A program made the position numbers and the translations under genes. From positions 1 through 64,000 of IMG/VR virus record IMGVR_UViG_3300048035_000135: a DNA stretch of 64,000 bases; one strand, written 5' to 3'. This document shows positions 25,636-41,643 of this stretch, piece after piece. The notes beneath the pieces are model-generated. The model was not told the origin of the DNA and searched no databases. It saw only the letters and a list, made by a program, of their open reading frames with translations. Position 1 is the first letter of the stretch, and every line of letters begins with the position of its first letter. The stretch comes from a virus.

Positions 25636-26295
25636 TTAGTAATCGGTTAACAATGTTAAAATTTCATCCAAAGATTCATGCCTGTGGTTATCTTTTAACA
25701 TTATATCATATACATATTGTGAACCTTTTAACTTAGGAACTTCATGTACTGCCGAATCATTGTTGAATTTCAAATCAATCTGTTGCTTATCACCACATAG
25801 TATCATAGTAGAACCTTTTCCTACCCTACCCAATACCATTAATAGTTGTTGCTTAGTCAAGTTCTGAAACTCATCGACAATACATATGGAGTTATCGAAA
25901 GTTCTTCCTCTAAAATGTGATAATGATACCAATTCTATCGATTCATCAGATTCCATCTTCTGTAATATGTTTGGTTTGTTGTAAACCTTTCTCATATTAG
26001 CTCTAATTGGAACTAACCAAGGTTCCATCTTCTCTTCTAATGAACCTGGTAAAAATCCGTTATCCTCATTTGATACAGTTGGTCTTGTTATAACGATTTT
26101 GTTAACTTTTCTTTTAAAAAACATATCCAATCCAATTTGACATGCCAATAACGTTTTACCACTACCTGCTTTACCTATTACAAAATTGAAGGGATGATTT
26201 AAAATTTGAGCTTTTGCTCTTTTCTGTTCTTCCGATAGAGATATCGAAAATCTCACATTACCTTTTGGTGGAGTTTTGTCTTTGTTTTCAGCCAT
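25636..26295 (-). CDS. phoH: PhoH-like ATPase
   Basis: GKAGSGKT, GFLPGSLEEKMEPW, RGRTF, DEFQN, GDKQQID. Likely start MAENK at 26295 with AAGGA SD. Confidence 0.92.
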   Translation of the reverse strand: MAENKDKTPPKGNVRFSISLSEEQKRAKAQILNHPFNFVIGKAGSGKTLLACQIGLDMFFKRKVNKIVITRPTVSNEDNGFLPGSLEEKMEPWLVPIRANMRKVYNKPNILQKMESDESIELVSLSHFRGRTFDNSICIVDEFQNLTKQQLLMVLGRVGKGSTMILCGDKQQIDLKFNNDSAVHEVPKLKGSQYVYDIMLKDNHRHESLDEILTLLTDY

Positions 26296-26350
26296 ACTTT
26301 CCTTTTTCCAATAATTAAATAACTCTTTATAATAAGTATGAATTAAGCAT

Positions 26351-26377
26351 AAAAAAAGGGGGAATCTCTTCCCCCTT
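26351..26377 (-). terminator. Intrinsic terminator after major capsid gene
   Basis: AAGGGGGAA-TCTC-TTCCCCCTT stem followed by a U-tract on the minus strand. Confidence 0.85.
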
Positions 26378-26404
26378 AATTTAAAGTATATCAATAATCA
26401 ATGA

Positions 26405-28051
26405 TTACTGAATTCTGTTTAATGAATCAACAAATACTTTTCCGTAGAACTCACCTCTTAGCATTTTCTTAGCGTAACGAGTCATTACACCTTTTCTAGG
26501 AGTGAAGTTTTTCGGGTCATATACAAGAGGAGTCATAATTAACGGAATATATGGTGCATATACTGCTCCAGTTTCAAGGAATTGAGTTCCTCTATATCCC
26601 ATAAGGATTACGTTCTCTTTCATATAAGGATTCTTATAAACTTGGAATCTACTATTTAATGAACCAACTTTTGATACACCGAATGCAAATTGAGCATCAC
26701 CATTATCCGCTGAAGAAGCGTAACCTGGAATTGACTCAATGATTGTTGCAACATCTGGAGATACTACTAAGAAATTAGCACCACCTCTAAGAGTTTTTTG
26801 GTGAATAGAGTTAGATACACCAGCGATTACAGTTCCTAAAGTCTGGAACCATGCTCCCTGATTGAATGCAGATGCTCCATATTCTGAATCATCCATTGCT
26901 GCGAATGCAGAACCATTCCATACTCTACCAGCTTTAGCTGACCAGTATCCTACTGATTTAGCATCTTGCATTAACATGTCTAAGATTTCAAAATCAATTT
27001 CTTGCGAAATGTATTCTGATAACATAGAAGTTAATTCTGCTTCAGCATCAATTGAGTGATATGCGTTCAAATCTTGTGCGAATTCAGGAGTCCACTGTGC
27101 TTTTAACTTTCTAGTCTTAGCAACGATTGGTAAACTCTTCATTTCAACATTCAATTCTGGAATATCGATATCAGCTTCAGGATTGTTTCTTAAAGAAGTT
27201 CCTGTTGCTTCGAAATCACCTCTTGATGTATCAGTTGGTTGTGCGTGATACTTTACAGTAACATTATCAGCCGCATCAGCCACACCTTTTACTACGAAAG
27301 TTACATCGCCATCAGCGTTGATTGTAGTATATTGTGGGAATTGGTCTGTAATTTTAGAAGAAACAACTCTAAATCCTCTGATACCTTTTGAATCTGCATC
27401 AACGAATTCATCGTGGTGTACTGTTAATTTATATACTGAACCAGCAGCATCCATTAAACCAGCATTAGATGCTGAGAACGCTGTATCGTAGTTGTAATCA
27501 CCAGCAGATAAAGAACCAGTTGTGTATTGGTTTGCTGCTAATGTTCCGTTTACTACGTTGTTACCAGTTACTTTATCGTTGATTGAGTATCCGAATCTAC
27601 CAGCACCATACAAACCACCTGAAGGGTCTGAAGATGTTTCTGTGATACCGAATACAGAATCAGCTTGTGAATCTTTTCCAGAACCACTAGCGAAACCTGG
27701 CTGAGAAGTACCATATTTAAAGTCTAAGTAAAATACTAGACCTGATGGTAAGTTCATTGGTTGTACTGATACGAAATCTTTTGCTACGATTTCTGAGAAG
27801 ATTCTTCTTACTAATGGTAAAGCTACACCAGCCCACTCTTCAGAGTTTGCCGAAGTACCAGTAGCAGAAGCTTCTTTTACTAATTGTCTTGCTTGATTTT
27901 CTAAAAGAGTCGCAACACCAGCTTTTTCAACTTCGTTTCCGATTCCTTCAAGAAGACCGGTTTTCTCCCACTTACCAGCTAAAGCTCTTGTAGCTTCAGA
28001 TAGTCTCGCAGTGTGAGAAGAACCTTCATTTAAAATGTTTTTTAAATCCAT
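26405..28051 (-). CDS. Major capsid protein (T4 gp23-like)
   Basis: LLENQ, LPLVRR, VQPMNLPSGLVFYLDFKY, AKTRKLKAQWTPEFAQDLNAYHSIDAEAELT, YAPYIPL, GVMTRY. Confidence 0.97.
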   Translation of the reverse strand: MDLKNILNEGSSHTARLSEATRALAGKWEKTGLLEGIGNEVEKAGVATLLENQARQLVKEASATGTSANSEEWAGVALPLVRRIFSEIVAKDFVSVQPMNLPSGLVFYLDFKYGTSQPGFASGSGKDSQADSVFGITETSSDPSGGLYGAGRFGYSINDKVTGNNVVNGTLAANQYTTGSLSAGDYNYDTAFSASNAGLMDAAGSVYKLTVHHDEFVDADSKGIRGFRVVSSKITDQFPQYTTINADGDVTFVVKGVADAADNVTVKYHAQPTDTSRGDFEATGTSLRNNPEADIDIPELNVEMKSLPIVAKTRKLKAQWTPEFAQDLNAYHSIDAEAELTSMLSEYISQEIDFEILDMLMQDAKSVGYWSAKAGRVWNGSAFAAMDDSEYGASAFNQGAWFQTLGTVIAGVSNSIHQKTLRGGANFLVVSPDVATIIESIPGYASSADNGDAQFAFGVSKVGSLNSRFQVYKNPYMKENVILMGYRGTQFLETGAVYAPYIPLIMTPLVYDPKNFTPRKGVMTRYAKKMLRGEFYGKVFVDSLNRIQ

Positions 28052-28079: not shown

Positions 28080-29147
28080 TTATTTTAAACCTGCTAGCTT
28101 TTTCCATCTAGCTGATAATTCATTGCCCTCAGAAATTATTTTCTTTGGTGCTGAACTTTTTGTTGCTTTTGAAGCAAATCCTTCTTTTACAACTGTTCTT
28201 TTCTTTTTAGCGACATTTAAGTTTTCAGCTAAAGTTGAGAATACTAATTTCACTTCTCTTACTGATGATGTTCTGTCGAAGTTTTCTAAAACTTTTACCT
28301 TTTGGTTTTCGTTTAAGTCGAAAGTTCTGAACAATTTGTTAGTATAAAGTAACTTAGCGTTCAACAAATTCACTTCATTAATAGTTTTTTGTAAACTCTT
28401 AATTGTTGAATATGCTTCTTCTAACTCAGTTGCCATATCTTCATCTTCTTCATCCATTTCATCTTCTTCATTCATGTCCTCATCAGATTCTTCCATCTCT
28501 TTCAAAGTTTTAATAACTTCTTCTAAATCGATGTTTTCATCTTCTTCGTCCATTTCATCTTCTTCGTCCATTTCATCAGCTGTTTCGTGATAATTTTCAT
28601 CATTTTCATCTGCTGATTCATAATTTTCATCATTTTCATCTGCAGATGCCATTTCAGCTTCTAATTCTTCGATTACAGATTCTAAGTCTAACTCATCATC
28701 TTCATCTTCTTCAGCTTCCATTTCTTCTTCAGCTTCTTCTGAATCCATATCATCCATTTCATCTTCCATAGAATCTTCTTCAGAATCATCAGACATTTCG
28801 CCTTCTTCTTCATCCATTTCATCCATTTCATCTTCTTCAGATACTACGTCATCATTTTCACTCTCTTCCGGAGCATCAATCAAATTATCATCATTTGGAA
28901 CATCAGATGAATCAGATGCGTCATCAGATGGTTCAGCGTTATCGCCAGCACCTAAATCAGATGAATCTAATTCTTCTTCCATTTCATCTTGCTCATCAGC
29001 ATCTTCTGCTAATTTAGCTGAAATCATTGATTGTAACTTCGGAGTGAATGCCTCTTCTAAAGCCAACTTAGCGTTTGCAAGAGCAGTTTCTTTAACGGCT
29101 TTAGCATCAGCGATAGCTTCAGATAACAAATCTTTTCTATTTGCCAT
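28080..29147 (-). CDS. Prohead core/scaffold protein (gp22-like)
   Basis: Highly acidic centre, ends WKKLAGLK, lies directly upstream of the capsid gene. Confidence 0.75.
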   Translation of the reverse strand: MANRKDLLSEAIADAKAVKETALANAKLALEEAFTPKLQSMISAKLAEDADEQDEMEEELDSSDLGAGDNAEPSDDASDSSDVPNDDNLIDAPEESENDDVVSEEDEMDEMDEEEGEMSDDSEEDSMEDEMDDMDSEEAEEEMEAEEDEDDELDLESVIEELEAEMASADENDENYESADENDENYHETADEMDEEDEMDEEDENIDLEEVIKTLKEMEESDEDMNEEDEMDEEDEDMATELEEAYSTIKSLQKTINEVNLLNAKLLYTNKLFRTFDLNENQKVKVLENFDRTSSVREVKLVFSTLAENLNVAKKKRTVVKEGFASKATKSSAPKKIISEGNELSARWKKLAGLK

Positions 29148-29301: not shown

Positions 29302-29562
29302 TTAATTTTCAAGCATCCTACGTCTGTATTCTGCTCTCACTGCTTGTTGCATTTTCTTTCTTTTGACAGCTGAAGGTTTGATATACTCTTTCCTATCTTT
29401 GAGTTCTTCAATCTTACCACTATCCTTTAATTTTCTTTTGAATGCTTTTAAGGCTAGTTCAATATTACCATTAACTACTTTTACGCCTGTTGCACAACCT
29501 GGTATATCCATATCTTCTCGCCTAATTTTTTTGTAAGGTCTTTTTTGTCTGTTATCTTGCAT
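29302..29562 (-). CDS. rpsU: Phage-encoded 30S ribosomal protein bS21
   Basis: VKVVNGNIELALKAFKRKLKDSG..EELKDRKEYIKPSAVKRKK is the S21 signature; basic N-terminal extension. Confidence 0.9.
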   Translation of the reverse strand: MQDNRQKRPYKKIRREDMDIPGCATGVKVVNGNIELALKAFKRKLKDSGKIEELKDRKEYIKPSAVKRKKMQQAVRAEYRRRMLEN

Positions 29563-29641: not shown

Positions 29642-30871
29642 TTACTTCATTGCTTTAAAAGCTACACTTACCATCTTAGGTAATGGTAGGTTTACAAATT
29701 TTTCTTTTACTTTATCTTTTTTAAGTGCATCATATACAGCTACGATTGCTGATGCTGAATAGTTATCCACTTTGTGTTTCTTTCCTGTTTGAGGGTCTTT
29801 TATAGTTTGATAACCACCTTTTCTTAATTGTGTAATGATTTCTGGTTCTTCAGCTTCATTAATAGACTCAACGAGTTTAACATCTTTAGCTGGATAATAA
29901 TCTTCTGTACTACCATCAAATCTAATTAATTGATGCTTTTTACCTTTAATCTTTTTATCTTTACCTTTAACTAATTCACCTGTGCCATAAAGTTTTCCAT
30001 CTTTATAAACATGAACTAATTCAACAGCTTCGTTAAGTTCAACAATACTATCCATAAGTTCACCATTTAATACTATAGCTGCGCCAAAGTTGAAATTCCA
30101 CCATTCTCTGTGCATAACTTCAAGTCTTTTAACACCAGCCTTTGATGGTTTTTTAACTAACTTTTCTGTAAGTTTAAGAAGTTCTTTTAGTTTAGATTGA
30201 AACTTTTTTAAATCTGCTTCTTTACCAGGCATTGGTTTAAATTTGTGTTTGATAGTTGCTTTGATTGCATTAATCAATACAGGCCCCATTATACTCACTA
30301 CTTCTTTAGCATCTGCTTTATCATCTATTACCCTATCTACAATTGCATTGGCGTTATTATAAATAGCTCCTGCTATTCTAGCACCAACCTTATCTTTGGA
30401 TATGTGATACTTAGCTTCGTTTACTGATTCGAAGTATTGAATATCTTCTTTTAATGTTCCTTCTGCAAACATCATCAACTCTTTTACTTTCTTTTCCATA
30501 GCTGGAACTTTTAATCCATAGGTATTAGCCATTAAGGTTTTCATATACCCACTATCAAGAAAGTTTTGTAATTCTTTTTTAGTTGCTACTGATGAGTTGA
30601 AATCATTTTTTGCAATCTTATCTAATTCTTTTGCACTTACTTTACCTTTCATATATGCGTTCATCGCATCTTGTTTGGTATTGTACTTAGCTTCATTTAC
30701 TGATTCGGTTACTCCTTCAGATAAATCATCAACACCTTGCTTCATATCAACAAATAGTTTTGTAAATTCTTTTTGTTTTTTAGAATCTAACTTTTTGATA
30801 TTCTTCAAATGTTTCTTTATCATAAAAGATAAATCAACTGAGATGTCTTGTAATATATCTGAGTAATCCAT
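29642..30871 (-). CDS. Multi-module hypothetical protein (putative protease-processed internal head polyprotein)
   Basis: Segments separated by ESVNEA, ESVNEA, ELNEA and ESINEA. Confidence 0.6.
   Translation of the reverse strand: MDYSDILQDISVDLSFMIKKHLKNIKKLDSKKQKEFTKLFVDMKQGVDDLSEGVTESVNEAKYNTKQDAMNAYMKGKVSAKELDKIAKNDFNSSVATKKELQNFLDSGYMKTLMANTYGLKVPAMEKKVKELMMFAEGTLKEDIQYFESVNEAKYHISKDKVGARIAGAIYNNANAIVDRVIDDKADAKEVVSIMGPVLINAIKATIKHKFKPMPGKEADLKKFQSKLKELLKLTEKLVKKPSKAGVKRLEVMHREWWNFNFGAAIVLNGELMDSIVELNEAVELVHVYKDGKLYGTGELVKGKDKKIKGKKHQLIRFDGSTEDYYPAKDVKLVESINEAEEPEIITQLRKGGYQTIKDPQTGKKHKVDNYSASAIVAVYDALKKDKVKEKFVNLPLPKMVSVAFKAMK
30408..30707. repeat. 24-bp direct repeat (1 mismatch) at 30408-30431 and 30684-30707
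   Basis: TACTTAGCTTC(G/A)TTTACTGATTCG encodes ESVNEAKY; copies are 276 nt apart. Confidence 0.85.
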
Positions 30872-32901
30872 TATTTCTTTACCCTACCCTTATCAATATC
30901 CATTTTTAATTCTTCAGCGGCACCTACTACATAGTGTGCTGCTAAGTTGATATCAATGTTCTTATACTTCATTAGTTTTCTAACTGCTAATAGTACAATT
31001 CGTTTTTCTTCAGTAGAGTAACCTTCAACAATATTCTTAGTTGTTTTGTTATTCTTAACTGAATCCATCATATCTTTAGCTGATACTTTCATCTTCATTA
31101 ACTTTTCCGATGGTAACTCTCCCATCCCAAATGATTCATTTAACATAGAAGTAAGTTTCATTGATTTAGATTCTGTGGTTAATCTTTTTTTGTATTTCTT
31201 AGCCATCTGCATTGCGACTTTTATTGCACTTTTTAAATCTTTTGTATTTTTCTGTGCTATTTGGCCATCCTCAAAATGTTCTACACTAACATTGTACTCT
31301 TCATCATTTTCATCATAACCAACAAATAACATCATATCTTGGCCACCATCAAATATAAATTCGCTAGTACCACTGTTGTATCTTAAATCGCTAACATCAG
31401 TATCTACTCTAACACCTACTGCTCTTTGTAAAGATTTTCTAACTAACTCTTGCTCTTTATCTGTCAATGCTTCATCGTTAGATGCTTCATTTAACATAGA
31501 AGTAAGTTTCATTGATTTAGATTCGTTAGCGAACTTTTTTGCGTTCTCTTTATCATCCTTATCAACATTAGTTACTTTATATTTCTTCCCATCTACTTCA
31601 AATTCACTATCACCATTTGCGATTGCTTTTGCTCTAGCTGCACCGAATTCGTTTCCTTCTTCAACTTTTTCTTCTACTTCATTGATTTCGTAATACTTTC
31701 CTAATACTTCACCAATCTCATCATAAGTTGATTCTAATCTTTGTTGTAGTGTATGAACTTCTCTTAAAGTTTTTTCAAAGATTCTAAAAGATTCATTCAT
31801 TCTTTTTACGTGTCTACCAACTGTGATACCATCAAATGAACCTTCAGTTTCTTTAACCATATTTTTACCAGCAGTTTCTACTAAGTTTCTGATTGATTCA
31901 TAAACTTTTTCTAATCCTTCTTTTCTATATACAGTTTCACCAAATGATGTGTATGCTTTAACAGCTTCTAAGAAAGCTCCTTTTTGTTCAGTAGTCATTT
32001 CAGTAGTTTCATCTCTATCATTTTCCTTTACAAAAGGTGAGTGAAATGGGTTTGAATATACTTTCATATTTTCAAACGATTCGTTTAGTAAATCTTTTAG
32101 TTTCATAGTTCCCTCTAATTTTGCTTCCATCATTTTTTTAGCTTCAGCTTCTATTTGCTTTTTAATTTTAGATGGTAATTTTTTATCGTAATATTTTATT
32201 TTACCTTTAGTATCAATGTGGGCTACATTTTTGTAATCACCAGCTTCTTCTTCAGCTTTATTATAAATAGTTAATCCGTTTCCTTTACGAGCCATACCAA
32301 TATCGTATTTTGCTTCGTTCATCTTCATAGATTCCATCAAACCGATTGCGGTACTGCCCACTTCTCTATCACCTTTATCAACATACCTCTTATTAACGAT
32401 ACCAAATTTGAATCCATCGATTTCAATCTGATACATTGGCATCATCGTAGAACTATAGAAGTATTTCTTTTTGTAACCACCTTTATCTAATTCTTTACCG
32501 ATTGCAAAGAAATCCTTTGCCTTACCAACTAAATCAGCCAATCTATCTAAGTGAGTACCAGCATCATCTCTTTCGTTAAGTGATTCTTCGTTTACATTAT
32601 CTCTCATAGCTCTGGATAAATCTTTGATGTACTTTAATTCTTCTTTAGCACCTTTGTGTTTAGCGTATCTATCCAATCCCATACTACTCATAATACCTAA
32701 TGATAAATGTAATCTAGCTTTTGCAGCTTTTGGATACTTTCTACCATAAGGTGAAGAGTTAAACCAATCAATCATAGCTTGTGCCATTTCTTTTGATAGT
32801 TTGATTCCTTCTACTCTATCAGTATTACCTTTTACAACCTGCTTTAGTCCACCGATTGCTGAGATTTCGTTAAGTGAGTTTTTTATATCAGTTAATTTCA
32901 T
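30871..32901 (-). CDS. Multi-module hypothetical protein (putative internal head polyprotein)
   Basis: Repeated MKLxxxxxNE-type linkers; AGGAG SD; directly downstream of the prohead protease gene. Confidence 0.6.
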   Translation of the reverse strand: MKLTDIKNSLNEISAIGGLKQVVKGNTDRVEGIKLSKEMAQAMIDWFNSSPYGRKYPKAAKARLHLSLGIMSSMGLDRYAKHKGAKEELKYIKDLSRAMRDNVNEESLNERDDAGTHLDRLADLVGKAKDFFAIGKELDKGGYKKKYFYSSTMMPMYQIEIDGFKFGIVNKRYVDKGDREVGSTAIGLMESMKMNEAKYDIGMARKGNGLTIYNKAEEEAGDYKNVAHIDTKGKIKYYDKKLPSKIKKQIEAEAKKMMEAKLEGTMKLKDLLNESFENMKVYSNPFHSPFVKENDRDETTEMTTEQKGAFLEAVKAYTSFGETVYRKEGLEKVYESIRNLVETAGKNMVKETEGSFDGITVGRHVKRMNESFRIFEKTLREVHTLQQRLESTYDEIGEVLGKYYEINEVEEKVEEGNEFGAARAKAIANGDSEFEVDGKKYKVTNVDKDDKENAKKFANESKSMKLTSMLNEASNDEALTDKEQELVRKSLQRAVGVRVDTDVSDLRYNSGTSEFIFDGGQDMMLFVGYDENDEEYNVSVEHFEDGQIAQKNTKDLKSAIKVAMQMAKKYKKRLTTESKSMKLTSMLNESFGMGELPSEKLMKMKVSAKDMMDSVKNNKTTKNIVEGYSTEEKRIVLLAVRKLMKYKNIDINLAAHYVVGAAEELKMDIDKGRVKK
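31135..31524. repeat. Perfect 39-bp direct repeat at 31135-31173 and 31486-31524
   Basis: TTCATTTAACATAGAAGTAAGTTTCATTGATTTAGATTC encodes ESKSMKLTSMLNE; copies are 351 nt apart. Confidence 0.95.
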
Positions 32902-32911
32902 TTATTATCTC

Positions 32912-33529
32912 CTAAATAGAACAAACACCATCAATTTCACAGATGATATCTCGTACTAATGTATTAATCTTTTTATATGAAGGTGTTTTTGCCTTTCCAA
33001 CTACTGATTCGTTCATGGGTCTCATAAATGCGCCATGTGTTGATGGGTTTGAAACAAAATCCCAACAAATTAAATCAAAATCATCTTCTACAGTAACAGA
33101 TTTACCATTACTAGCTTCTTTTACAGAACCCATACCTCTTGAAGAGATACCAACAGTACAACCTGCCTCTAAAAGTTCTTTAAGGATGTTCCCTGCTGGA
33201 GTTTTAAGTATTTCTACCTTACCCATCACATCATCACCCTTCCAATATACTTCTCTGATGATATGTGAAGTGTTTTTTAGTTCAACTACCGAAGATTCAG
33301 GATGGTCTAACTCACCAAACGCTCTATTTTCTTTGATTTCTCTATTTTTGTATTTATCCACTTCTCTTTCTAAGATTGAACGTGGATAAACTCTACCATT
33401 TTGATTTTCAGCTTCAGCACGTTGCAGGACACCATTAACAATCAACCTACCATTGTTATCTTCCAATGATTCATTGATTTGCCTCTTAGTCATAGTAAAA
33501 GGAATTGTATCTATAAGTAATCTTCCCAT
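32912..33529 (-). CDS. Prohead protease (T4 gp21-like)
   Basis: NQNGRVYP, GELDHP, SHII, GISSRGMGS, DFVSNPS. Likely start MGRLL at 33529. Confidence 0.95.
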   Translation of the reverse strand: MGRLLIDTIPFTMTKRQINESLEDNNGRLIVNGVLQRAEAENQNGRVYPRSILEREVDKYKNREIKENRAFGELDHPESSVVELKNTSHIIREVYWKGDDVMGKVEILKTPAGNILKELLEAGCTVGISSRGMGSVKEASNGKSVTVEDDFDLICWDFVSNPSTHGAFMRPMNESVVGKAKTPSYKKINTLVRDIICEIDGVCSI

Positions 33530-33663
33530 TATGCTCCCCAAACTTTTCGTTTTCTATATAAATCAAACATGATTTGTGCTACTTCATATCTTATAAATAG
33601 ACGAATATTCTCCAAATCCTTATTTGAGAGTTCTTCTTTTAATATTTTCTTTTTGGAACTCAT
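33529..33663 (-). CDS. 44-aa hypothetical protein (not in ORF track)
   Basis: MSSKKKILKEELSNKDLENIRLFIRYEVAQIMFDLYRKRKVWGA; ATGA overlap upstream and TAATG overlap downstream. Confidence 0.7.
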   Translation of the reverse strand: MSSKKKILKEELSNKDLENIRLFIRYEVAQIMFDLYRKRKVWGA

Positions 33664-34148
33664 GCTGATAACTCTTTTAGGTTTCTAGCTACCTTTAACA
33701 TACGTTCTGAAATTTTTCCAAATCTTTTTTTAGTTGATTCCCAATATTGACCCGAATGAACACCAGCTTCTGTTTTCAATTTAGCGTTTTGATTAACCAT
33801 TCTTTCCAACTTAAACATCATACTATTGATTTCTTTAATAGAATCATTTATTTTTTGATGTTGCTTTCTTGAATCATCTTTTTTAAACTCTTTATAAGAA
33901 ATCTCATTGATTTTATTTTCTAACTTACGTTCTAATGATTCTAATTTTTTAGTATTCATTTTTTTCTCCTTTGATTTCTTATATCCTAAAACTTCAATAT
34001 GTTCATCATCCAAATCATCTTCATCTTTACTTTTAGCAAAGGCATGTGGGGTTTTAATAGGGCCCTCACCACCATCTAAATTAGCAGTTACGTTAGATTC
34101 TTCGATTTCTTCGAACTTATCTTCAATTTCTTTTATTAAACTTTTCAT
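33660..34148 (-). CDS. Hypothetical head-module protein
   Basis: 162 aa, coupled to neighbours, carries IEE and INE motifs. Confidence 0.65.
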   Translation of the reverse strand: MKSLIKEIEDKFEEIEESNVTANLDGGEGPIKTPHAFAKSKDEDDLDDEHIEVLGYKKSKEKKMNTKKLESLERKLENKINEISYKEFKKDDSRKQHQKINDSIKEINSMMFKLERMVNQNAKLKTEAGVHSGQYWESTKKRFGKISERMLKVARNLKELSA

Positions 34149-34993
34149 TTAAACACCCTTTTCAATTCAGATTTAAGTTCGTGATATCTAAGTAGTGATA
34201 AAATTTGAGATTCTGTAATTACTTTAGCTGCTTTTAACTTACTAATGAGTTTTAATACTTCATTTACTTTAATCTTAGTAACAGTATCTGTAACTTTTAC
34301 ATTTTCAATTTCTTTTTTAAGTAAATTACACTCTCTTATTACAAATTTCTTTAATTTTTGAGAATTATCTACTGAGTTGATGTATTCTCTCAAAATATTT
34401 TGTTGTTTATCAGTAAGATTTGTATATTTGTTGTTAAAATTCTCAACTAACATCTTCCATGCTAACAATCTCACCTCTTTTGGTTGTTTAGAATAATCTT
34501 CGTTAATGGTAGATGTTACTTTATCTTCTGATTTAGAATTGTTTGTTAACGATTCTAACAATGTTGATTTACATTCTACATATTCCTTTGGATTATCAGA
34601 TGTAGTATGTTCAAATAATTTATATATAGATGCATTTGCTTTATAGTTAGATACTCTATACTTAAAGAAATCTTCTAAAACAAAATTTTTCTTAATAGCT
34701 TTGATTAAATTGTACTTCTGTCTATTTAAAACAGATTCGTTTAATTTTTTTCTTTCACTAAGTATGATGTTTACAAACTCAGATGCTTTATACTCTGAAG
34801 AAAATGATTCTTCAATAAATACTTTATATAATTTAAGTTCCTTAGCTAATTCTGTACTCTTACCAAAGTGCTCTCTTATAATGTAAGTAGCTCTTGAATC
34901 TTTATTGTTCAAAGTATCGGTACTGATTTGTCTTACCAATAATTCGAATAAGATTCCTGTATTTTTGTACTTACTATGTTTCAATTTCTTCAT
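34145..34993 (-). CDS. Hypothetical head-module protein (possible prohead core component)
   Basis: Between portal and protease; GAGGA SD; late motif at 35035-35042. Confidence 0.65.
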   Translation of the reverse strand: MKKLKHSKYKNTGILFELLVRQISTDTLNNKDSRATYIIREHFGKSTELAKELKLYKVFIEESFSSEYKASEFVNIILSERKKLNESVLNRQKYNLIKAIKKNFVLEDFFKYRVSNYKANASIYKLFEHTTSDNPKEYVECKSTLLESLTNNSKSEDKVTSTINEDYSKQPKEVRLLAWKMLVENFNNKYTNLTDKQQNILREYINSVDNSQKLKKFVIRECNLLKKEIENVKVTDTVTKIKVNEVLKLISKLKAAKVITESQILSLLRYHELKSELKRVFK

Positions 34994-35050: not shown

Positions 35051-36922
35051 TTAAGAATCCAATATGTTTTTCTCATCCAATAATGATAAACTTTCATCAT
35101 TGGTGTCCTCTTTTAACGATTCTATTATTATTTTTTTGGTTTTTCTATTAGATTTCATACGTCCAATAACTGCATCAATCTGTTCTTGATTGATAACGGA
35201 AGTAGCGTTATATCCTTCAGGTCTTATATCAATACTTTTGTTACCTAAAGGGTCTCTACCGAATGGTGATTTATCTTTACCATACGTTCCACCTTCCTTA
35301 GGTCTACCAGCACCTTCAAATCCCCCTTCAGGAGCTCCACCTTTGTTTTCACCGAATGCCCCACCAGCATCACCACCACCTTCTTGTGTTGTTAGTGCTG
35401 CTAAATCATGTGGTGTACCAAATGATTCTCCAGTCTTAACTGGGTCATTACCTTCTTGCTCAATCTGTTCGTGTCTGAATCCTAATTTCAAATCATTGAT
35501 AACTTTGAATTGTTCTTCTTTCCATTCATCTTCACTCATATTAAAGATGTTTTTGTAAACCCACTCTTGTGATACCATTCTTAAATCTTTGATATCACTT
35601 GCTAATGATACTTTTTCAGACCAAAGGTTTGCTTTTTCTTGCTCATAAATAATAGATGGAGTAGTAAGTTCTAATTCAAAGTTTACCAACTCTTCATCTG
35701 TATAACCTTGTGAGTATAAGTGTACAATTGCAATCTTAGTTAATTCTGAAAGTACAATCTTTTGGATTCTTTCTACAGAACGAGCAAATCTAATATCTTC
35801 TTGCGCTAATGTTGCTTTACCTTCAACACCTTCTTCGTATCCAATAAATGCTTTTGGAACTTTAAGTGCTGCCATCATTCTGTTTCTTAGGTATTCGATA
35901 TCATCAATACCACCAAACTCCATTCCACTTAGAGAATCAATCTCAGTACCACTTTGTCCACCTCTAACAGGTAAATAGTAATCTTCCAACATATTCTGCA
36001 TATTGAATTTAAGATTGTAATCACCAGTAGTTTCATCAATGTATGGAGTTTTCTTCATCTGGTCGATGATGTTACTCATATATGAATCAACCTCAGCAGG
36101 TGGAATATTACCAATATCAATTTTGAAAATTCTCTTTTCAGGTGCTCTCATAATTCGATGAATCATCATCGCATCTTCCATAAGAGTTAATTGTTTCCAA
36201 GTCTTTCTTGCACCTTCTAACAATGAACGTCCATAAGGTAGGAAGTTTGTATCTGTTAATAATCTGAAATGTGCTACTTGGAATGATTCTAAAAACTTAG
36301 TGTTGTTTCTTTGTGAAATTGCATTTGTGTTTTGTTCTTCAACCTCAAATCTTACTGAATAAGGATTATCTAAATCATATCCTTCTTCTCTTCTCGTTTC
36401 ATATGCCGATAGTGGTTGTGCGTTTACAACACCTAACTCATCATCAATATCTAAGTAAAGATAGTAATCACCATATTTGTTCATACCTCTTACCCAAGAC
36501 CATAAGTTGAACTCAATGTTCAATACATCATAGAATAAGTTTCTTAATGTTTTCTTTAATTTTTCATCAGATGATTTAACTCTAAGTACATCACCCATAT
36601 CGTTTTTAAGTGTACACTCATCTGAGTATATATCTAAGATTGATGAGATAATAGAATCTTTATCCATTGCCTCATAATCTGTATATAGTTCTAATTTATT
36701 CGAATGGTAGTTAAATCTTTCATTGTATGTTTGCCAATTCTTTCTTGAGTTAGAACCATGCAATCTTCCATACCTATCATAGTAAGCTGAACCTCTTCTA
36801 TTACCATCACTTTGTAATCTTGAAGAATCAACAACTTTTAATTTATCTTTACCGACTCTTCTAACAACTACCTGAGTTGAGAATAGTCTCTTTAATCTAC
36901 CGAATAATGAAGTATCTGCCAT
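35051..36922 (-). CDS. Portal protein (T4 gp20-like)
   Basis: LMEDAMMIHRIMRAPEKRIFKIDIGN, MLEDYYLP.RGG..GTEI..L.G, ALKVPK. Confidence 0.95.
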   Translation of the reverse strand: MADTSLFGRLKRLFSTQVVVRRVGKDKLKVVDSSRLQSDGNRRGSAYYDRYGRLHGSNSRKNWQTYNERFNYHSNKLELYTDYEAMDKDSIISSILDIYSDECTLKNDMGDVLRVKSSDEKLKKTLRNLFYDVLNIEFNLWSWVRGMNKYGDYYLYLDIDDELGVVNAQPLSAYETRREEGYDLDNPYSVRFEVEEQNTNAISQRNNTKFLESFQVAHFRLLTDTNFLPYGRSLLEGARKTWKQLTLMEDAMMIHRIMRAPEKRIFKIDIGNIPPAEVDSYMSNIIDQMKKTPYIDETTGDYNLKFNMQNMLEDYYLPVRGGQSGTEIDSLSGMEFGGIDDIEYLRNRMMAALKVPKAFIGYEEGVEGKATLAQEDIRFARSVERIQKIVLSELTKIAIVHLYSQGYTDEELVNFELELTTPSIIYEQEKANLWSEKVSLASDIKDLRMVSQEWVYKNIFNMSEDEWKEEQFKVINDLKLGFRHEQIEQEGNDPVKTGESFGTPHDLAALTTQEGGGDAGGAFGENKGGAPEGGFEGAGRPKEGGTYGKDKSPFGRDPLGNKSIDIRPEGYNATSVINQEQIDAVIGRMKSNRKTKKIIIESLKEDTNDESLSLLDEKNILDS

Positions 36923-38557: not shown

Positions 38558-39153
38558 TTCTTTCCCAATTTCCAAAGAAACTGAGTTGATATGATTGGTT
38601 GAAATTGGTCGTTTAATCCAATACCTAATCCAAACGCCTGCTTCTTTCTCGTTCTGTATAATATAGAACCACCAACATAGTTAAATTGTTTTGATGTTCC
38701 ATTTAATCCGAATCCTACATAGAATTCTCTTGGATTTATGTATTCAGTTTGAGTTACAGTAGTTGTAGGTATTATAAGTTCTGATTCAACTAACCTATTG
38801 AAGAGTGTGTTTTTCCATATTGTATCTGTGATGGTTACGAAACCTAATGAATCTAATTCAATCTTATCAACAAACACATTTTTAGCGTAATAATCTTTTA
38901 GAACTTCTAAAGTATCAATTGGAGTATTTACTAAAATAGAATCAACTTGTGTAACTATTTTTGTTTTCCATTTAGGAACATAAACTTTCTTGTCTATGGT
39001 AATTGTATCGTATTTCGTTTCTACCTTTGTAACAATAGTAGGCTCGGATGGGGTAATTTCTCCCCCATCTCCACTACATTGTCTAAGTAATAATATTACA
39101 ATTATTAAAACTAAGATTATTAGATTTCTAATATCTCCGAAATACTTTTTCAT
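38554..39153 (-). CDS. Membrane-anchored protein, possible spanin-like lysis protein
   Basis: N-terminal TM helix ending LLRQC, DT-rich linker, C-terminal amphipathic beta-strands. Confidence 0.45.
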   Translation of the reverse strand: MKKYFGDIRNLIILVLIIVILLLRQCSGDGGEITPSEPTIVTKVETKYDTITIDKKVYVPKWKTKIVTQVDSILVNTPIDTLEVLKDYYAKNVFVDKIELDSLGFVTITDTIWKNTLFNRLVESELIIPTTTVTQTEYINPREFYVGFGLNGTSKQFNYVGGSILYRTRKKQAFGLGIGLNDQFQPIISTQFLWKLGKK

Positions 39154-39553: not shown

Positions 39554-41641
39554 TTACCAAGTTCTACACGCCCAATATCTTGCTTTCCACTTAGGGCCTG
39601 GATTATCACAATTCATTCTATCTCTAAATGCTTTTCTTCGAGCTGGGTCTGATTTTTTAATTCTCATTGTTTTCTCACCACCCTTGCCTTTGTGACCAAA
39701 GTTTACTTTCACTACATTACCTTTATCATTGTTAACATAAACTTTAAACTTCTTTACATCACCTTGCATAATTTTATTGAGTTCTACTTTTCTTCCTTGA
39801 TATTCTGCTTCGTTGATTGATTCGTGCATATCTTCGATAGTGGCTGCCATATCACCAATAGCCATAGTTACGTTTCCGTTTCTTTGGTATAGATAATACT
39901 TAACACCTTTTGGATTCTCTGGATTTTGTAGAATGATTCTTTCTACTTTTTGTTTACCAACTAAAGTTTTTCCTTTGGATACTACAAATTCCTTTTCAAC
40001 TCCACCTCTCATTGATGAACCATACTTAATCGTAATCTTATCACCTTTTTTGAGTTTATCGTAAACCTTTAATCTTTTTTTCATATCCATAGATTTGGCT
40101 TCGGTAAACAATGTTTCACCACTTTTTGATTCAACACTAATTTTTGCGTTTGGATATTTCTTTTGTAGAATCATAAATATAGCTGGAACTAATTGTGGAG
40201 TTTTTACTAACTCTTGATAAACCACCTTACCTTTTTCAGAAACCACTATAGTTGCTGGGTAGCTACCTTTTTTAGCTGCTTTATGAATCTCACCTCTAGT
40301 AGCTTCATCGATTGCTTTTGGATATGGAGTATTTTTAGCTAACTTCAAAAGAGCTTGTAAATCTGATGATTTATTTCTATTGTACTTATCTGCGTTCTTT
40401 TTATTTTTGAAGATAGCTGATACTTTCTTTCCGTTATCATCAATCATAATAATGATACCTTTTTTACCAAAGTGTCTTTCATCAGTTACAGATAATCCTT
40501 CTTCAACTTTCTCACCTGCTTTTAATGGTGCCATATCTTTATACATATTGTACAACCAATCCATAAAATCAGGAGTATTTTGGAATACTTTTCTATAATG
40601 TTTTTTGAATTTCTTTTTGAAATCTTCAAAATCTTTAGATGCATCAGCTAACAAATGAATGTTAGACATTACACCTTCTTCAATAGATTCTTTTGTAGTT
40701 CTCCATCCACCACCTGCTGCTTTGTATTGTTTAGCAGCCCAAGCATTAGCGTAAGCCGATGGATATACATCGAACTTTTGTTTAGCTTGTGATTTATAGT
40801 AAGACCATTTAGATGGATTTGTAGGAACATTCTTTTCTGTAAGTTCGATTACTCTTTCTTCTAACTTTTTACCTTCAACAGTTTTGGTAATTATATCAAC
40901 ATGCCCTTGAATATAGTGATGTTCTTTTTCCAATCCCATCATCTTTGCCATTTTCATAATGTTTTTTTGTAGATTCTTAGCTACCATTATGTAATCTTTT
41001 TCAGGTTTGTAACCATCTCTCTGAATATGTTCTTCTACAAAGAAAAGTACATCATGTAATCTTGCACTTCTTTCAGCCATATCCATATCAACACCTTTAG
41101 ATTCTATATCCATATATAGAGATGATGCGCCAGGACAAACGTGAAAGTATTTTGTGTGATAATTACCGATTCTAAAATCTTCTTTATCATTCTCATCTTC
41201 ATTTTGGCCACTCATAGTTTCGTATTCATATGAATGAGTTACTTCATTGATGAATTTATTTACAAACATTCTAATGTTTTCATTCATACCTTCTTTTAGT
41301 GAAGTAATTTTAGCACCTACAGGTCCACCAATAAACATCGATGCCCAATATGAAATAGCATCTATAATTTCATACCCATCCCATTTAGCTGCTTTAGCGA
41401 TTGGAACTCCGTGATTCATTTCTATTGAATCTTCCCATTCTCTTTTACCAGCGTGCTTAGCTTTATTCGCTTTAGGAAACATATTTGCTACTCTCTGAGA
41501 TTCAGAATGAAAGTTAGCATCTGTTAATGCACCTATTAGGATATGTTTTAATGCATGGTGTACTTCCGGCTCTGAACCTTTGTACCCTTTGAAGTATGCA
41601 TCTAAATCTTTTTTGACTTTTTTATTTAATCTGGTATTCAT
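39554..41641 (-). CDS. Multi-module hypothetical protein (putative internal head polyprotein)
   Basis: Modules separated by LKEG, INEV, LTEK, IEEG, VEEG, IDEA, FTEA and INEA. Includes YPSAYANAW...GGGW and NFG...RRKAFRDRMNC...ARYWAC modules. Confidence 0.6.
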   Translation of the reverse strand: MNTRLNKKVKKDLDAYFKGYKGSEPEVHHALKHILIGALTDANFHSESQRVANMFPKANKAKHAGKREWEDSIEMNHGVPIAKAAKWDGYEIIDAISYWASMFIGGPVGAKITSLKEGMNENIRMFVNKFINEVTHSYEYETMSGQNEDENDKEDFRIGNYHTKYFHVCPGASSLYMDIESKGVDMDMAERSARLHDVLFFVEEHIQRDGYKPEKDYIMVAKNLQKNIMKMAKMMGLEKEHHYIQGHVDIITKTVEGKKLEERVIELTEKNVPTNPSKWSYYKSQAKQKFDVYPSAYANAWAAKQYKAAGGGWRTTKESIEEGVMSNIHLLADASKDFEDFKKKFKKHYRKVFQNTPDFMDWLYNMYKDMAPLKAGEKVEEGLSVTDERHFGKKGIIIMIDDNGKKVSAIFKNKKNADKYNRNKSSDLQALLKLAKNTPYPKAIDEATRGEIHKAAKKGSYPATIVVSEKGKVVYQELVKTPQLVPAIFMILQKKYPNAKISVESKSGETLFTEAKSMDMKKRLKVYDKLKKGDKITIKYGSSMRGGVEKEFVVSKGKTLVGKQKVERIILQNPENPKGVKYYLYQRNGNVTMAIGDMAATIEDMHESINEAEYQGRKVELNKIMQGDVKKFKVYVNNDKGNVVKVNFGHKGKGGEKTMRIKKSDPARRKAFRDRMNCDNPGPKWKARYWACRTW

Positions 41642-41643
41642 TA

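What the first reader, a model, noticed from the sequence alone, without database searches (positions are those of the whole stretch)
29642..32901. Polyproteins of small domains joined by prohead-protease-like cleavage linkers: a possible capsid-delivered cargo system
Seen: two ORFs beside the protease gene are strings of unrelated segments of roughly 45-150 aa. They are separated by recurring linkers: ESVNEA twice, ELNEA, ESINEA; and SLNEI, SLNER, KMNEA, LLNES, VEEG, MLNEA, MLNES, IVEG. Several linkers repeat the protein's own N-terminus (MKLTDIKNSLNE, MKLKDLLNE, MKLTSMLNE). Established: T4 gp21 cleaves after (I/L)-x-E, and T4 internal proteins carry a roughly 10-aa N-terminal capsid-targeting peptide ending in Glu; IPI* is an injected anti-restriction factor. 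Inference: these ORFs are concatenated internal proteins, packaged once, cut into many small effectors and injected with the DNA, possibly as anti-defence factors.
Basis: partly seen in the sequence, partly recalled or inferred. Interest (0 to 1): 0.82.

Follow-up and report, generated by a model that had tools for sequence, protein, structure and literature searches.

The report
Shuffled polyprotein cargo for phage heads
Next to the head-maturation protease of a marine T4-like phage lie two genes that string together many small, unrelated protein domains joined by what look like the protease's own cutting sites, and related phages carry different sets and orders of these domains, which suggests a swappable load of small proteins packed into the capsid.

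Summary
ORFs 30871-32901(-) (676 aa) and 29642-30871(-) (409 aa) follow a Peptidase_S77 (T4 gp21-like) protease. They precede bS21, an acidic scaffold and a Gp23 capsid gene.

- **Motif enrichment:** [LIVMF]NE is about 10 times enriched in both ORFs (shuffles 0/5000 and 2/5000).
- **Site consensus:** over 586 contexts it is E-S-[VLI]-N-E followed by A/S/G, the T4 gp21 pattern. The same motif is conserved at the capsid protein N-terminus and at both ends of the protease domain.
- **Structure:** AlphaFold2 gives separate confident small domains (pTM 0.24 and 0.34). Nearly all motifs lie in low-confidence stretches, mostly between domains.
- **Relatives:** phages with 91-98% identical proteases carry almost as many module orders as there are loci. 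The interval ranges from 0.6 to 4.1 kb, and one module is a 351-nt indel flanked by a perfect 39-nt linker repeat.

**Corrections:**
- The RMNE|S site lies inside a conserved ~134-aa core module that is a stand-alone gene in distant relatives.
- A third polyprotein (39554-41641) belongs to the same system.

Cleavage, packaging and injection are inferred. The anti-defence role is speculation, and no module has a recognisable function. I found no published description. I class it as a new variant of the T4 internal-protein principle. Earlier notes of this scan on this same genome had already flagged the repeats and the third locus.

The parts
32912..33541 (-). Prohead protease, T4 gp21-like (Peptidase_S77). 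The likely true start is ATG at 33529, preceded by GGGAG. Conserved QINE|S near the N-terminus and PMNE|S after the protease domain are candidate self-processing sites.
   Evidence: Pfam PF03420 E=3.9e-35. phrog_207 head maturation protease E=1.8e-53. 32% identity to T4 gp21, E=4e-29, with T4 ITE|S aligned to MNE|S. Flanking sites are conserved in relatives. Start context.
30871..32901 (-). Polyprotein 1, 676 aa, AGGAG ribosome-binding site. Module string: leader, B, Ag, F, core(E-S), NEFGAARAK module, V, G-like peptide, C-terminal helical module.
   Evidence: ORF. No Pfam or PHROG hit. At least 741 unannotated relatives of 371-1183 aa. AF2 pTM 0.24 with separate confident blocks. Module strings.
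32866..32901 (-). N-terminal leader MKLTDIKNSLNE (residues 1-12). Candidate capsid-targeting and cleavage peptide.
   Evidence: Sequence. pLDDT below 50. N11 and E12 are at least 90% conserved. Resembles the capsid protein N-terminus MDLKNILNE|G.
32572..32865 (-). Module B (residues 13-110), helical, pI 9.7. Ends NVNE|ESLNE|.
   Evidence: AF2 block 13-98 with pLDDT 56-80. N-terminal in most relatives but C-terminal in L026, L044, L056 and L069. pI.
32314..32571 (-). Module Ag (residues 111-196), alpha+beta. Ends KMNE|A.
   Evidence: AF2 block 112-195 with pLDDT 70-85. Present in only some relatives, or in a separate ORF in L052 and L055.
32080..32313 (-). Module F (residues 197-274), with the MKLKDLLNE| linker at 266-274.
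   Evidence: AF2 block 199-260. Found in 24 of the locus proteins. M266, K267, L268 and E274 are invariant. GAGGGA lies 4 nt before the internal ATG.
31678..32079 (-). Conserved core module E-S (residues 275-408). Predicted long helices. Contains RMNE|S at 370, which is internal to the domain.
   Evidence: Holds nearly all invariant columns of alignment A1. 601 representatives of 126-800 aa, both stand-alone and embedded. Stand-alone forms carry M-K-x-L-K-x-I-L-N-E leaders. Mel-JY01 has a 154-aa stand-alone gene with KLSES at the equivalent position.
31486..31677 (-). Module of residues 409-472 (VEEKVEEG|NEFGAARAK...), ending in the linker ESKSMKLTSMLNE|.
   Evidence: AF2 block 417-460 with pLDDT 74-77. 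Always follows the core module in relatives (family S, Av or Bh).
31135..31485 (-). Module V (residues 473-589) plus the second copy of the linker. A 351-nt cassette-like indel.
   Evidence: AF2 block 477-577 with pLDDT 76-90. Absent from the closest relative L009, which has a single linker. Sits at a different position in L033. No stand-alone form found.
31135..31173 (.). Perfect 39-nt direct repeat, copy 1, encoding ESKSMKLTSMLNE.
   Evidence: (family D1).
31486..31524 (.). Perfect 39-nt direct repeat, copy 2.
30874..31134 (-). Residues 590-676: a short peptide SFGMGELPSEKLMKMK... (590-627, ending NIVE|G) and a C-terminal helical module (628-676).
   Evidence: AF2: 578-627 low confidence, 628-676 pLDDT 84-91. 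In relatives the same junction reads ESVINE|GYSTEE, so IVE|G is a variant of a canonical linker.
29642..30871 (-). Polyprotein 2, 409 aa. Its start overlaps the stop of polyprotein 1 (TAATG). Module string: D leader, W, Ai, Aj, P.
   Evidence: ORF. 334 relatives. AF2 pTM 0.34. Module strings.
30692..30871 (-). D leader (residues 1-60), helical, ends ESVNE|A. Always N-terminal and followed by different modules in relatives.
   Evidence: D-W, D-K, D-X, D-Ao, D-Ac, D-Bc, D-Bn. Relative position 0.00-0.01 in 40 proteins.
30416..30691 (-). Module W (residues 61-152), flanked by ESVNE|AKY on both sides. The linker is encoded by a 24-nt repeat at 30408-30431 and 30684-30707.
   Evidence: (family D6, 96% identity, spacing 276).
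30029..30415 (-). Module Ai (residues 153-281), four-helix bundle, pI 9.7.
   Evidence: AF2 pLDDT 70-95. VIA-align Z about 11 to generic four-helix bundles, which is not diagnostic. Found inside polyprotein 1 in L033 and inside third-locus-type proteins in relatives.
29855..30028 (-). Module Aj (residues 282-339), small beta domain. Ends ESINE|A.
   Evidence: AF2 pLDDT 71-84. Absent from the closest full-length relatives P0123-P0127.
29645..29854 (-). Module P (residues 340-409), alpha/beta, pI 9.7.
   Evidence: AF2 pLDDT 74-87. Its homologue lies upstream of the terminase in many relatives, inside the third-locus polyprotein.
39554..41641 (-). Third polyprotein (695 aa), upstream of the terminase and outside the finding. 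Linkers include MNE|N, INE|V, IEE|G, VEE|G, IDE|A, FTE|A and ESINE|A.
   Evidence: Translation, sites. Its modules occur together with modules Ai and P of polyprotein 2 in single proteins of relatives.
28025..28051 (-). Capsid protein N-terminus MDLKNILNE|G. Same leader type as the polyproteins.
   Evidence: conserved as M[DN]LxxIL[NS]E|G down to 62% identical capsid proteins.
28080..29147 (-). Acidic scaffold-like protein (pI 4.05), in the position of T4 gp22.
   Evidence: Synteny with T4 gp21-gp22-gp23.

Best explanation
The two ORFs, and a third at 39554-41641, are precursors of prohead-internal proteins written as polyproteins.

**Proposed steps**
1. Each polyprotein is made late in infection from the head operon.
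2. It co-assembles into the scaffolding core of the prohead. Targeting would use a conserved element: the MKLxxxLNE leader, which it shares with the capsid protein. The helical core module E-S and the D leader of the second ORF may also take part.
3. The adjacent gp21-type serine protease is activated and cuts after Glu in [V/L/I/M]-x-E followed by A/G/S. In this lineage x is nearly always Asn.
4. About 14 folded pieces of 4-16 kDa are released, many of them lysine-rich and basic.
5. These pieces are too large to leave a closed shell, so they stay with the DNA as T4 IPI*-IPIII* do. They are expected to leave with the DNA at infection.

The linker-coding DNA repeats also serve as in-frame recombination points. 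Modules can therefore be gained, lost and permuted, which makes the cargo set hypervariable among otherwise near-identical phages.

**Shown here:** modular architecture, motif enrichment, conservation of the motif, motif placement at domain borders, module shuffling, and the repeat-flanked indel.

**Inferred:** targeting, cleavage, retention and ejection.

**Speculative:** that the pieces act against host defences or take over the host.
For: **Gene context**
- The order is portal, 282-aa ORF, 162-aa ORF, S77 protease, polyprotein 1, polyprotein 2, bS21, acidic scaffold, Gp23 capsid protein. This parallels T4 genes 20-67-68-21-22-23.
- The protease is 32% identical to T4 gp21, E=4e-29.

**Motif**
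- About 10-fold enriched. Shuffles reach the count in 0/5000 and 2/5000 trials.
- Logo over 586 unique contexts: P5 E 39%, P4 S 41%, P3 V/L/I/M 98%, P1' A+S+G 67% against a 20% background.
- P1 Glu and P3 are invariant or at least 90% conserved at linkers 12, 105, 196, 274, 408 and 589. P2 can change, for example LLKE|S or ILSE|G. This fits a specificity of hydrophobic-x-Glu.
- The same motif is conserved at the capsid protein N-terminus and on both sides of the protease domain.
- In T4 itself, LTE|A at gp23 residue 65 and four [LI]xE sites in gp67 follow this pattern.

**Structure**
- AF2 gives pTM 0.24 and 0.34, with confident blocks at 13-98, 112-195, 199-260, 417-460, 477-577 and 628-676 in the first ORF and at 159-260, 283-334 and 341-409 in the second.
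- In the 676-aa ORF, sites 12, 105, 110, 196, 274, 408, 415, 472, 589 and 626 fall in segments with pLDDT below 50. In the 409-aa ORF, sites 281 and 339 fall in short low-pLDDT gaps between confident blocks, while sites 60 and 152 lie in a 158-residue low-confidence stretch and are not informative.

**Leaders and ORF boundaries**
- Stand-alone homologues of the core module begin with M-K-x-L-K-x-I-L-N-E.
- In L044 and L069 the polyprotein is split into two ORFs exactly at an MKL linker.

**Plasticity**
- 15 loci whose proteases are 91-98% identical show 14 or more different module strings. The protease-to-S21 interval ranges from 567 to 4081 bp.
- Roughly 113 segment clusters occur in 289 proteins.
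- The same architectures are recovered from independent metagenomes: L020, L021 and L022; L005 and L006; L017 and L018.
- Module V is a 351-nt indel between perfect 39-nt repeats. L009 has a single copy of the linker.

**Product properties:** 4-16 kDa, many with pI 9-10, 13.5-17% Lys and no Cys. This resembles T4 internal proteins, whose lysines contact the DNA (PMC3012670).

**Precedent:** T4 IPs share only a capsid-targeting sequence and are diverse defence-countering proteins (PMC3012670). Ip2 and Ip3 also inhibit Type IV restriction enzymes (PMC12373910).
Against: - There is no proteomic, biochemical or structural evidence that these proteins are in virions or are cut. I found no paper on this lineage that addresses it.
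- No module has a recognisable function or fold with functional meaning.
- The best-conserved part, the core E-S module, is acidic and is predicted as long low-confidence helices. That looks like a scaffold component, not an effector.
- At least one motif (RMNE|S at 370) is inside a conserved domain, so the presence of the motif does not prove cutting.
- Only 4 of about 13 linkers in the first ORF carry the MKL leader, so targeting by each linker is not supported.
- AF2 alignments were shallow (44 and 32 rows). Low pLDDT at linkers partly reflects alignment gaps.
- The phage's host is unknown. Flavobacterium phage immuto, whose capsid protein is 56% identical, lacks the locus.
Confidence: 0.6

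Rival explanations
1. The ORFs are accessory scaffold or core proteins. Like T4 gp22 and gp67, they are chopped up during maturation and the fragments are lost or inert, so nothing is delivered and nothing acts in the next host. The variability would be neutral cassette drift in a tolerant, structurally undemanding protein.
For: The ORFs sit between the protease and the scaffold gene. The conserved core module is helical, acidic and present in all relatives. T4 gp67 is an 80-aa core protein with four [LI]xE sites, annotated as a precursor to internal peptides. No effector-like domain was detected.
Against: Most modules are predicted as compact folded domains of 6-15 kDa. That is far larger than peptides that could escape a closed shell, and they are basic and lysine-rich like retained T4 internal proteins. 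Very high turnover of module content among near-identical phages is more typical of conflict genes than of assembly parts.
Confidence: 0.2
2. The proteins are multi-domain virion or non-virion proteins that are not cleaved. The ES-x-NE and MKL...LNE stretches would be only flexible spacers, kept alike because they serve as recombination junctions at the DNA level.
For: Perfect and near-perfect DNA repeats encode some linkers. Modules move as units bounded by them. One motif lies inside a domain.
Against: The motif is conserved at the protein level across 586 different sequence contexts, with a P1' preference for A/S/G that a DNA-level role does not explain. The identical motif sits at the capsid protein N-terminus and at both ends of the protease domain, where no modules are exchanged. 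P1 Glu is kept when P2 changes.
Confidence: 0.12
3. The apparent module shuffling is an artefact of metagenome assembly across short linker repeats, and the real genes are uniform.
For: Most comparison sequences are metagenomic contigs, and the linkers are repeated DNA.
Against: Exact repeats are at most 39 nt. The same architectures recur in independent samples, and different ones are each recovered several times. Many modules have no counterpart at all in other contigs, which chimeric joining cannot create.
Confidence: 0.03

Closest known systems
T4 internal proteins IPI, IPII, IPIII and Alt (cargo with a capsid-targeting sequence, processed by gp21)
   Same: The phage has a gp21-family protease. 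There is a short N-terminal leader ending in hydrophobic-x-Glu. Predicted products are small, basic and lysine-rich. The gene content is hyperplastic, with only the leader and linker conserved (PMC3012670).
   Different: In T4 each internal protein is a separate gene with one leader, and the genes lie away from the head operon. Here 5-12 modules are fused in one reading frame with repeated internal leaders and cleavage linkers, directly after the protease gene. P2 is almost always Asn. Homology to the T4 proteins was not tested. Packaging and injection are unproven.
T4 gp67, gp68 and gp22 prohead core and scaffold proteins
   Same: Similar position in the head operon. Multiple [LI]xE sites occur in a single small protein, gp67. 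The conserved core module is helical.
   Different: No detectable similarity of the core module to gp67 or gp68 (hhalign probability below 1%), nor of the 162-aa ORF to gp68. The polyproteins contain many globular, variable domains that T4 core proteins lack.
Polyvalent proteins of phages and conjugative elements (Iyer et al. 2017, PMC5512222)
   Same: Many unrelated domains in one polypeptide that is predicted to travel with the DNA and to be released by proteolysis. A few polyvalent proteins carry an assemblin-like peptidase.
   Different: Polyvalent proteins are defined by recognisable enzymatic and DNA-binding domains and usually by an embedded peptidase (a zincin-like MPTase in about 36%). 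Here no known domain and no embedded peptidase is present. Processing would be in trans by the head protease at short, repeated, sequence-defined linkers.
Ejection and inner-body proteins of giant phages (phiKZ, 201phi2-1, SPN3US), processed by a gp21-like protease
   Same: Many head proteins are cut by a T4-like prohead protease after Glu, and a large protein mass is ejected into the host (abstracts of PMC5694885, PMC7411985 and PMC10052503).
   Different: In those phages the substrates are individual genes, often paralogue families, with propeptides removed. A beads-on-a-string polyprotein with permutable modules is not described in the papers I could search.

Membership tests
Peptidase S77 (T4 gp21 prohead protease), for the neighbouring gene | Match to the family profile above the curated threshold | tested here: met
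   PF03420 at 121.6 bits against a cut-off of 27, E=3.9e-35, covering 176 of 198 profile positions. phrog_207 E=1.8e-53.
Peptidase S77 (T4 gp21 prohead protease), for the neighbouring gene | Direct similarity to T4 gp21, including the His- and Ser-containing blocks | tested here: met
   BLASTP gives 32% identity, E=4e-29. GELDHP aligns with GELNHP and GISSRGMGS with GVSSRGLGS. That these blocks hold the catalytic residues rests on my own knowledge.
T4-type internal proteins (cargo with a capsid-targeting sequence) | N-terminal peptide of about 10 aa ending in (L/I)-x-E, followed by a small residue | tested here: met
   MKLTDIKNSLNE|I at the N-terminus. Internal copies are MKLKDLLNE|S and MKLTSMLNE|A/S. 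Stand-alone homologues carry the same leader type. This is sequence evidence only.
T4-type internal proteins (cargo with a capsid-targeting sequence) | Cleavage by the prohead protease in the prohead | not testable with these tools
   Only indirect support: motif logo, conservation and placement at domain borders.
T4-type internal proteins (cargo with a capsid-targeting sequence) | Presence in the mature head and ejection with the DNA | not testable with these tools
   No virion proteome of this lineage was found.
T4-type internal proteins (cargo with a capsid-targeting sequence) | One protein per gene | tested here: not met
   There are 9 and 5 segments in single ORFs. This is the feature that makes it a variant.
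T4 gp67/gp68 prohead core proteins | Sequence or profile similarity | tested here: inconclusive
   hhalign of the 34-sequence core-module profile against gp68 gives probability 0.5% and against gp67 0.1%. BLASTP of the 162-aa ORF against gp68 gives E=1.1. These short, fast-evolving proteins could be beyond detection.
Polyvalent proteins (Iyer et al. 2017) | Several domains of different families in one polypeptide of a phage | tested here: met
   AF2 shows independent blocks. Modules cluster into unrelated families.
Polyvalent proteins (Iyer et al. 2017) | Contains the characteristic domains (MPTase or another peptidase, ART, ParB, methylase, helicase and so on) | tested here: not met
   No Pfam family at E<=0.01 in either ORF or in the third ORF apart from a sub-threshold PLAT hit. 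No PHROG family.

The most novel reading that the evidence does not exclude
A combinatorial system for delivering small proteins in tailed phages. Cassettes encoding small proteins are strung into polyproteins and loaded into the prohead through a shared leader or core module. The head protease cuts them into a dozen or more proteins, which are injected with the genome to counter host defences or take over the host. The linker-coding repeats would work like attachment sites of an in-frame cassette array, so each phage lineage carries its own cargo set.
Probability: 0.25. Interest if true: 0.85.

Novelty: new variant of a known kind. Interest (0 to 1): 0.72.

Why it matters
If the reading holds, three things follow.

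- **A new way to carry effectors.** Tailed dsDNA phages would be using a polyprotein strategy, usually associated with RNA viruses, to load many small proteins into the capsid in fixed proportion from one targeting event. Their repertoire would evolve by in-frame cassette exchange at the cleavage linkers.
- **Scale.** The family is large but wholly unannotated. At least 741 and 334 clusters match the two ORFs, and the core module has 601 representatives at 50% identity.
- **Practical use.** The linker grammar (E-S-V-N-E followed by A/S/G, and MKLxxxLNE) gives a simple way to predict processed head cargo and protease sites from sequence. It also supplies about a hundred small orphan domains as candidates for host-interaction screens.

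It would extend the T4 internal-protein paradigm, recently broadened by the finding that Ip2 and Ip3 are also anti-restriction proteins (PMC12373910), to an uncultured marine lineage.

Tried and rejected
**Function of the modules: nothing usable**
- Pfam and PHROGs on both ORFs and on the third ORF found nothing.
- Foldseek of the 676-aa model against PDB and BFVD gave no match at E<=1e-3. There were only ~90-residue resemblances to uncharacterised phage proteins.
- VIA-align of the 409-aa model gave only generic four-helix bundles at Z about 11, below the level that is meaningful for helical bundles.
- The ESM Atlas returned only hypothetical viral clusters.
- A PDB profile search with the core module gave a best E of 0.15.

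**Core module as T4 gp67 or gp68:** no detectable similarity.

**Internal MKL codons as retained translation starts:** only the one at residue 266 has a Shine-Dalgarno-like GAGGGA. Those at 464 and 581 have none. This is weak and left open.

**Stand-alone form of module V:** none found. The single hit is a fragment of a polyprotein on a 1.5-kb contig.

**HSP breakpoint analysis:** breakpoints are enriched near the motifs (24% within 5 aa against 11% at random, with a maximum of 13% in 200 trials). The result is noisy because the linkers themselves are homologous.

**Single-linkage clustering of segments:** it chained families through shared linkers, so the family counts are rough.

**My first assumption that this is a pelagimyophage:** dropped. 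By capsid protein the nearest isolates are Microcystis phage Mel-JY01 (61%) and Flavobacterium phage immuto (56%). No cyanomyophage or T4 record passed E<=1e-30.

**Literature:** I found no description of these polyproteins.

Full report
**1. What is there**

All genes in this part of the window lie on the minus strand. In order they are:

| Coordinates | Gene | Evidence |
|---|---|---|
| 36989-38575 | large terminase | |
| 35051-36922 | T4-type portal | PF07230 |
| 34145-34993 | 282-aa ORF | |
| 33660-34148 | 162-aa ORF | |
| 32912-33541 | prohead serine protease | PF03420 Peptidase_S77, E=3.9e-35 |
| 30871-32901 | 676-aa ORF (the finding) | |
| 29642-30871 | 409-aa ORF (the finding) | |
| 29302-29562 | ribosomal protein bS21 | |
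| 28080-29147 | very acidic scaffold-like protein | pI 4.05 |
| 26405-28051 | Gp23-type major capsid protein | PF07068, E=1.3e-77 |
| 25636-26394 | PhoH | |

This is the T4 order 20-67-68-21-22-23 with two extra ORFs and bS21 inserted between the protease and the scaffold. The protease is 32% identical to T4 gp21 (E=4e-29). Its real start is probably the ATG at 33529, behind GGGAG. The two ORFs have no Pfam or PHROG match.

**2.

Three more were missed: NVNE|E at 105, RMNE|S at 370 and EINE|V at 408.

- [LIVMF]NE occurs 13.3 and 9.8 times per 1000 residues in the two ORFs, against 1.14 in the other 19,222 residues of window ORFs.
- Residue shuffles reach the observed count in 0/5000 and 2/5000 trials.
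- On the whole 95.9-kb contig these two ORFs rank first and second.
- Most other occurrences in the window are in head-module proteins: the protease, the two small ORFs before it, the scaffold, and the first nine residues of the capsid protein.

**3. The motif looks like the protease's site**

I collected 586 distinct sequence contexts from the window, from 80 related IMG/VR loci and from 240 database relatives. The consensus is P5 Glu (39%), P4 Ser (41%), P3 Val/Leu/Ile/Met (98%), P2 Asn, P1 Glu, and P1' Ala/Ser/Gly (67% against a 20% background).

In the 44-sequence alignment of the first ORF, the P1 Glu and the P3 residue of linkers 12, 105, 196, 274, 408 and 589 are invariant or at least 90% conserved. 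P2 can change, for example LLKE|S or ILSE|G. That is what one expects if the rule is hydrophobic-x-Glu followed by a small residue, the pattern known for T4 gp21.

T4's own sequences fetched here show the same pattern. LTE|A sits at gp23 residue 65, and gp67 has four [LI]xE sites and is annotated as a precursor to internal peptides.

The same motif is conserved where processing is expected in this lineage:
- M[DN]LxxIL[NS]E|G at the capsid protein N-terminus.
- QINE|S just before the protease domain.
- P[MV]NE|S just after the protease domain. This last site aligns with ITE|S of T4 gp21.

**4. Beads on a string**

AlphaFold2 with alignments of relatives gives low global confidence (pTM 0.24 and 0.34) but separate confident blocks:
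- First ORF: 13-98, 112-195, 199-260, 417-460, 477-577 and 628-676.
- Second ORF: 159-260, 283-334 and 341-409.

In the first ORF, the segments with pLDDT below 50 contain sites 12, 105, 110, 196, 274, 408, 415, 472, 589 and 626. In the second ORF, sites 281 and 339 fall in short low-pLDDT gaps between confident blocks. Sites 60 and 152 fall in a 158-residue low-confidence stretch and are therefore uninformative.

The exception is RMNE|S at 370, which sits in a predicted long helix. Predicted products are 4-16 kDa. Many are basic (pI 9-10). The ORFs contain 13.5-17% Lys and no Cys.

**5. Relatives show that modules are the unit of evolution**

A protease-based scan returned 80 loci. The flanking head genes are conserved: protease 62-98%, portal 55-94%, capsid protein 56-98%. 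The protease-to-bS21 interval, by contrast, varies from 567 to 4081 bp and holds ORFs of 99-1001 aa.

Written as module strings:

| Source | Module string |
|---|---|
| Window, ORF 1 | B-Ag-F-E-S-V-M |
| Window, ORF 2 | D-W-Ai-Aj-P |
| L010 | B-Ah-Y-L-F-E-S-G-I |
| L017 | B-T-F-E-S-M |
| L026 | E-S-Aa-H-F-G-B |
| L056 | E-S-Bi-Bj-Bk-Bl-Ah-Bm-F-G-B |
| L033 | B-V-H-F-Ai-E-A-Av-I |

- Fifteen loci with proteases 91-98% identical show at least fourteen different strings.
- The same strings recur in independent metagenomes (L020, L021 and L022; L005 and L006; L017 and L018). This argues against assembly artefacts.
- In L044 and L069 the string is broken into two ORFs exactly at an MKL linker. The second ORF then starts MMKLKDILNE.
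- The second ORF always begins with the 57-60-aa D leader ending ESVNE or NINE, followed by different modules.
- A rough count gives about 113 segment clusters in 289 proteins, 57 of them singletons.
- Database searches find at least 741 and 334 unannotated clusters related to the two ORFs.

**6. A conserved core**

Nearly all invariant columns of the first ORF fall in residues 266-390. This module, E-S at residues 275-408, has 601 representatives at 50% identity. They range from 126 to about 800 aa, and the module sits at the start, middle or end of the protein.

In distant relatives it is a stand-alone gene directly after the protease. Examples are the 161-aa gene in L074-L078 and the 154-aa gene in Microcystis phage Mel-JY01.

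The stand-alone forms start with leaders such as MKLKDLLNES or MKTSLKNILNES. The internal linkers of the polyproteins are therefore the same element as the N-terminal leader of single-module proteins. This fits an origin by gene fusion, with expansion in the clade whose proteases are at least 68% identical to the window's.

In these alignments the RMNE|S position is part of the conserved fold (RHMKxLxES; KLSES in Mel-JY01). It should not be counted as a linker.

The module shows no similarity to T4 gp67 or gp68, to any PHROG with a function or to any solved structure. It is acidic and is predicted as long helices of low confidence. I read it as a scaffold-associated anchor. That reading is an inference.

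**7. Linker DNA as a recombination point**

The linker ESKSMKLTSMLNE is encoded twice by a perfect 39-nt repeat (31135-31173 and 31486-31524). The copies are 351 nt apart and bracket module V.

The closest relative over this stretch, L009 (91% identity), has a single copy joining the same two neighbours. In L033, V lies elsewhere in the string. No stand-alone V was found.

A second repeat of 24 nt with one mismatch encodes ESVNEAKY on both sides of module W. Earlier notes of this scan on this genome had flagged both repeats, and I confirm them.

**8. A third locus**

The 695-aa ORF at 39554-41641, upstream of the terminase, has the same build. Its linkers include MNE|N, INE|V, IEE|G, VEE|G, IDE|A, FTE|A and ESINE|A.

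In relatives its modules occur in one polypeptide together with modules Ai and P of the window's second ORF. Module P lies upstream of the terminase in many loci. The loci therefore share one module pool.

**9. Interpretation**

The best-supported reading is that these are prohead-internal polyproteins. They would be loaded through the leader and/or the core module, then cut by the S77 protease into small, mostly basic proteins that stay with the DNA. This resembles T4 internal proteins, which share only a targeting peptide and are otherwise a diverse set of defence-countering proteins (PMC3012670 and PMC12373910).

Packaging, cleavage and ejection are inferred from sequence logic and analogy. 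An anti-defence role has no direct support. The main rival is that these are disposable core or scaffold material. The size, foldedness and rapid turnover of the modules argue against this, but nothing here excludes it.

**10. Comparison and novelty**

The closest known systems are:
- T4 internal proteins. The principle is the same, but there it is one protein per gene.
- Polyvalent proteins (PMC5512222). The idea of many domains delivered together is the same, but they are defined by known enzymatic domains and embedded peptidases, which are absent here.
- The protease-processed ejection proteins of giant phages.

I found no description of permutable, linker-delimited head polyproteins in the searchable literature. 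I class it as a new variant of a known kind.

**11. Lineage**

By capsid protein the nearest isolates are Microcystis phage Mel-JY01 (61%), Flavobacterium phage immuto (56%), which has no polyprotein locus, and Rhodothermus phage RM378 (36%). The host of the window's phage is unknown. The related contigs are named only by IMG/VR and metagenome record numbers, and I did not check their sample origin; some database relatives carry Tara Oceans labels.

Noticed in passing
window 39554-42069 (-): Third polyprotein (695 aa), with a neighbouring 141-aa ORF, upstream of the terminase. It has the same kind of Glu-ending linkers. Its modules are shared with the second-locus polyproteins of relatives, including a Trp- and Cys-containing C-terminal module ending ...NCDNPGPKWKARYWACRTW.
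   Followed up: partly
window 29302-29562 (-): A ribosomal protein bS21 gene (PF01165, E=7e-12) sits inside the head operon between the polyproteins and the scaffold gene. It is syntenic in Mel-JY01 and in most related loci.
   Followed up: no
window 33529-33541 (-): The protease ORF is listed from a TTG start. An ATG four codons downstream is preceded by GGGAG and is the more likely start.
   Followed up: partly
L010:13307-14629 (+): In one relative a 440-aa ORF is inserted between the second polyprotein ORF and bS21. It contains a DPFAGGS-type motif, which suggests a DNA methyltransferase. I did not check it against profiles.
   Followed up: no
alignment A3 (P0305, P0312, P0333, P0383) and L073:10829-11344: Several stand-alone core-module proteins carry a C-terminal tail with a DIDNDGDxDxSDxYL motif that resembles a calcium-binding loop. 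A few PHROG hits of these members probably come from this tail.
   Followed up: no
P0163, P0166 and P0169 (relatives of the 409-aa ORF): Some relatives replace the D leader with an N-terminal module that carries a precomputed PF11450 hit. This is the only Pfam family seen in any member of these polyprotein families.
   Followed up: no
window 46020-56384 (-): A 3454-aa ORF lies in the structural region. I did not examine it.
   Followed up: no
window 42682-45006 (-): A 774-aa ORF with an N-terminal cytidylyltransferase-like domain (PF01467, E=5e-7) lies next to the third polyprotein locus.
   Followed up: no
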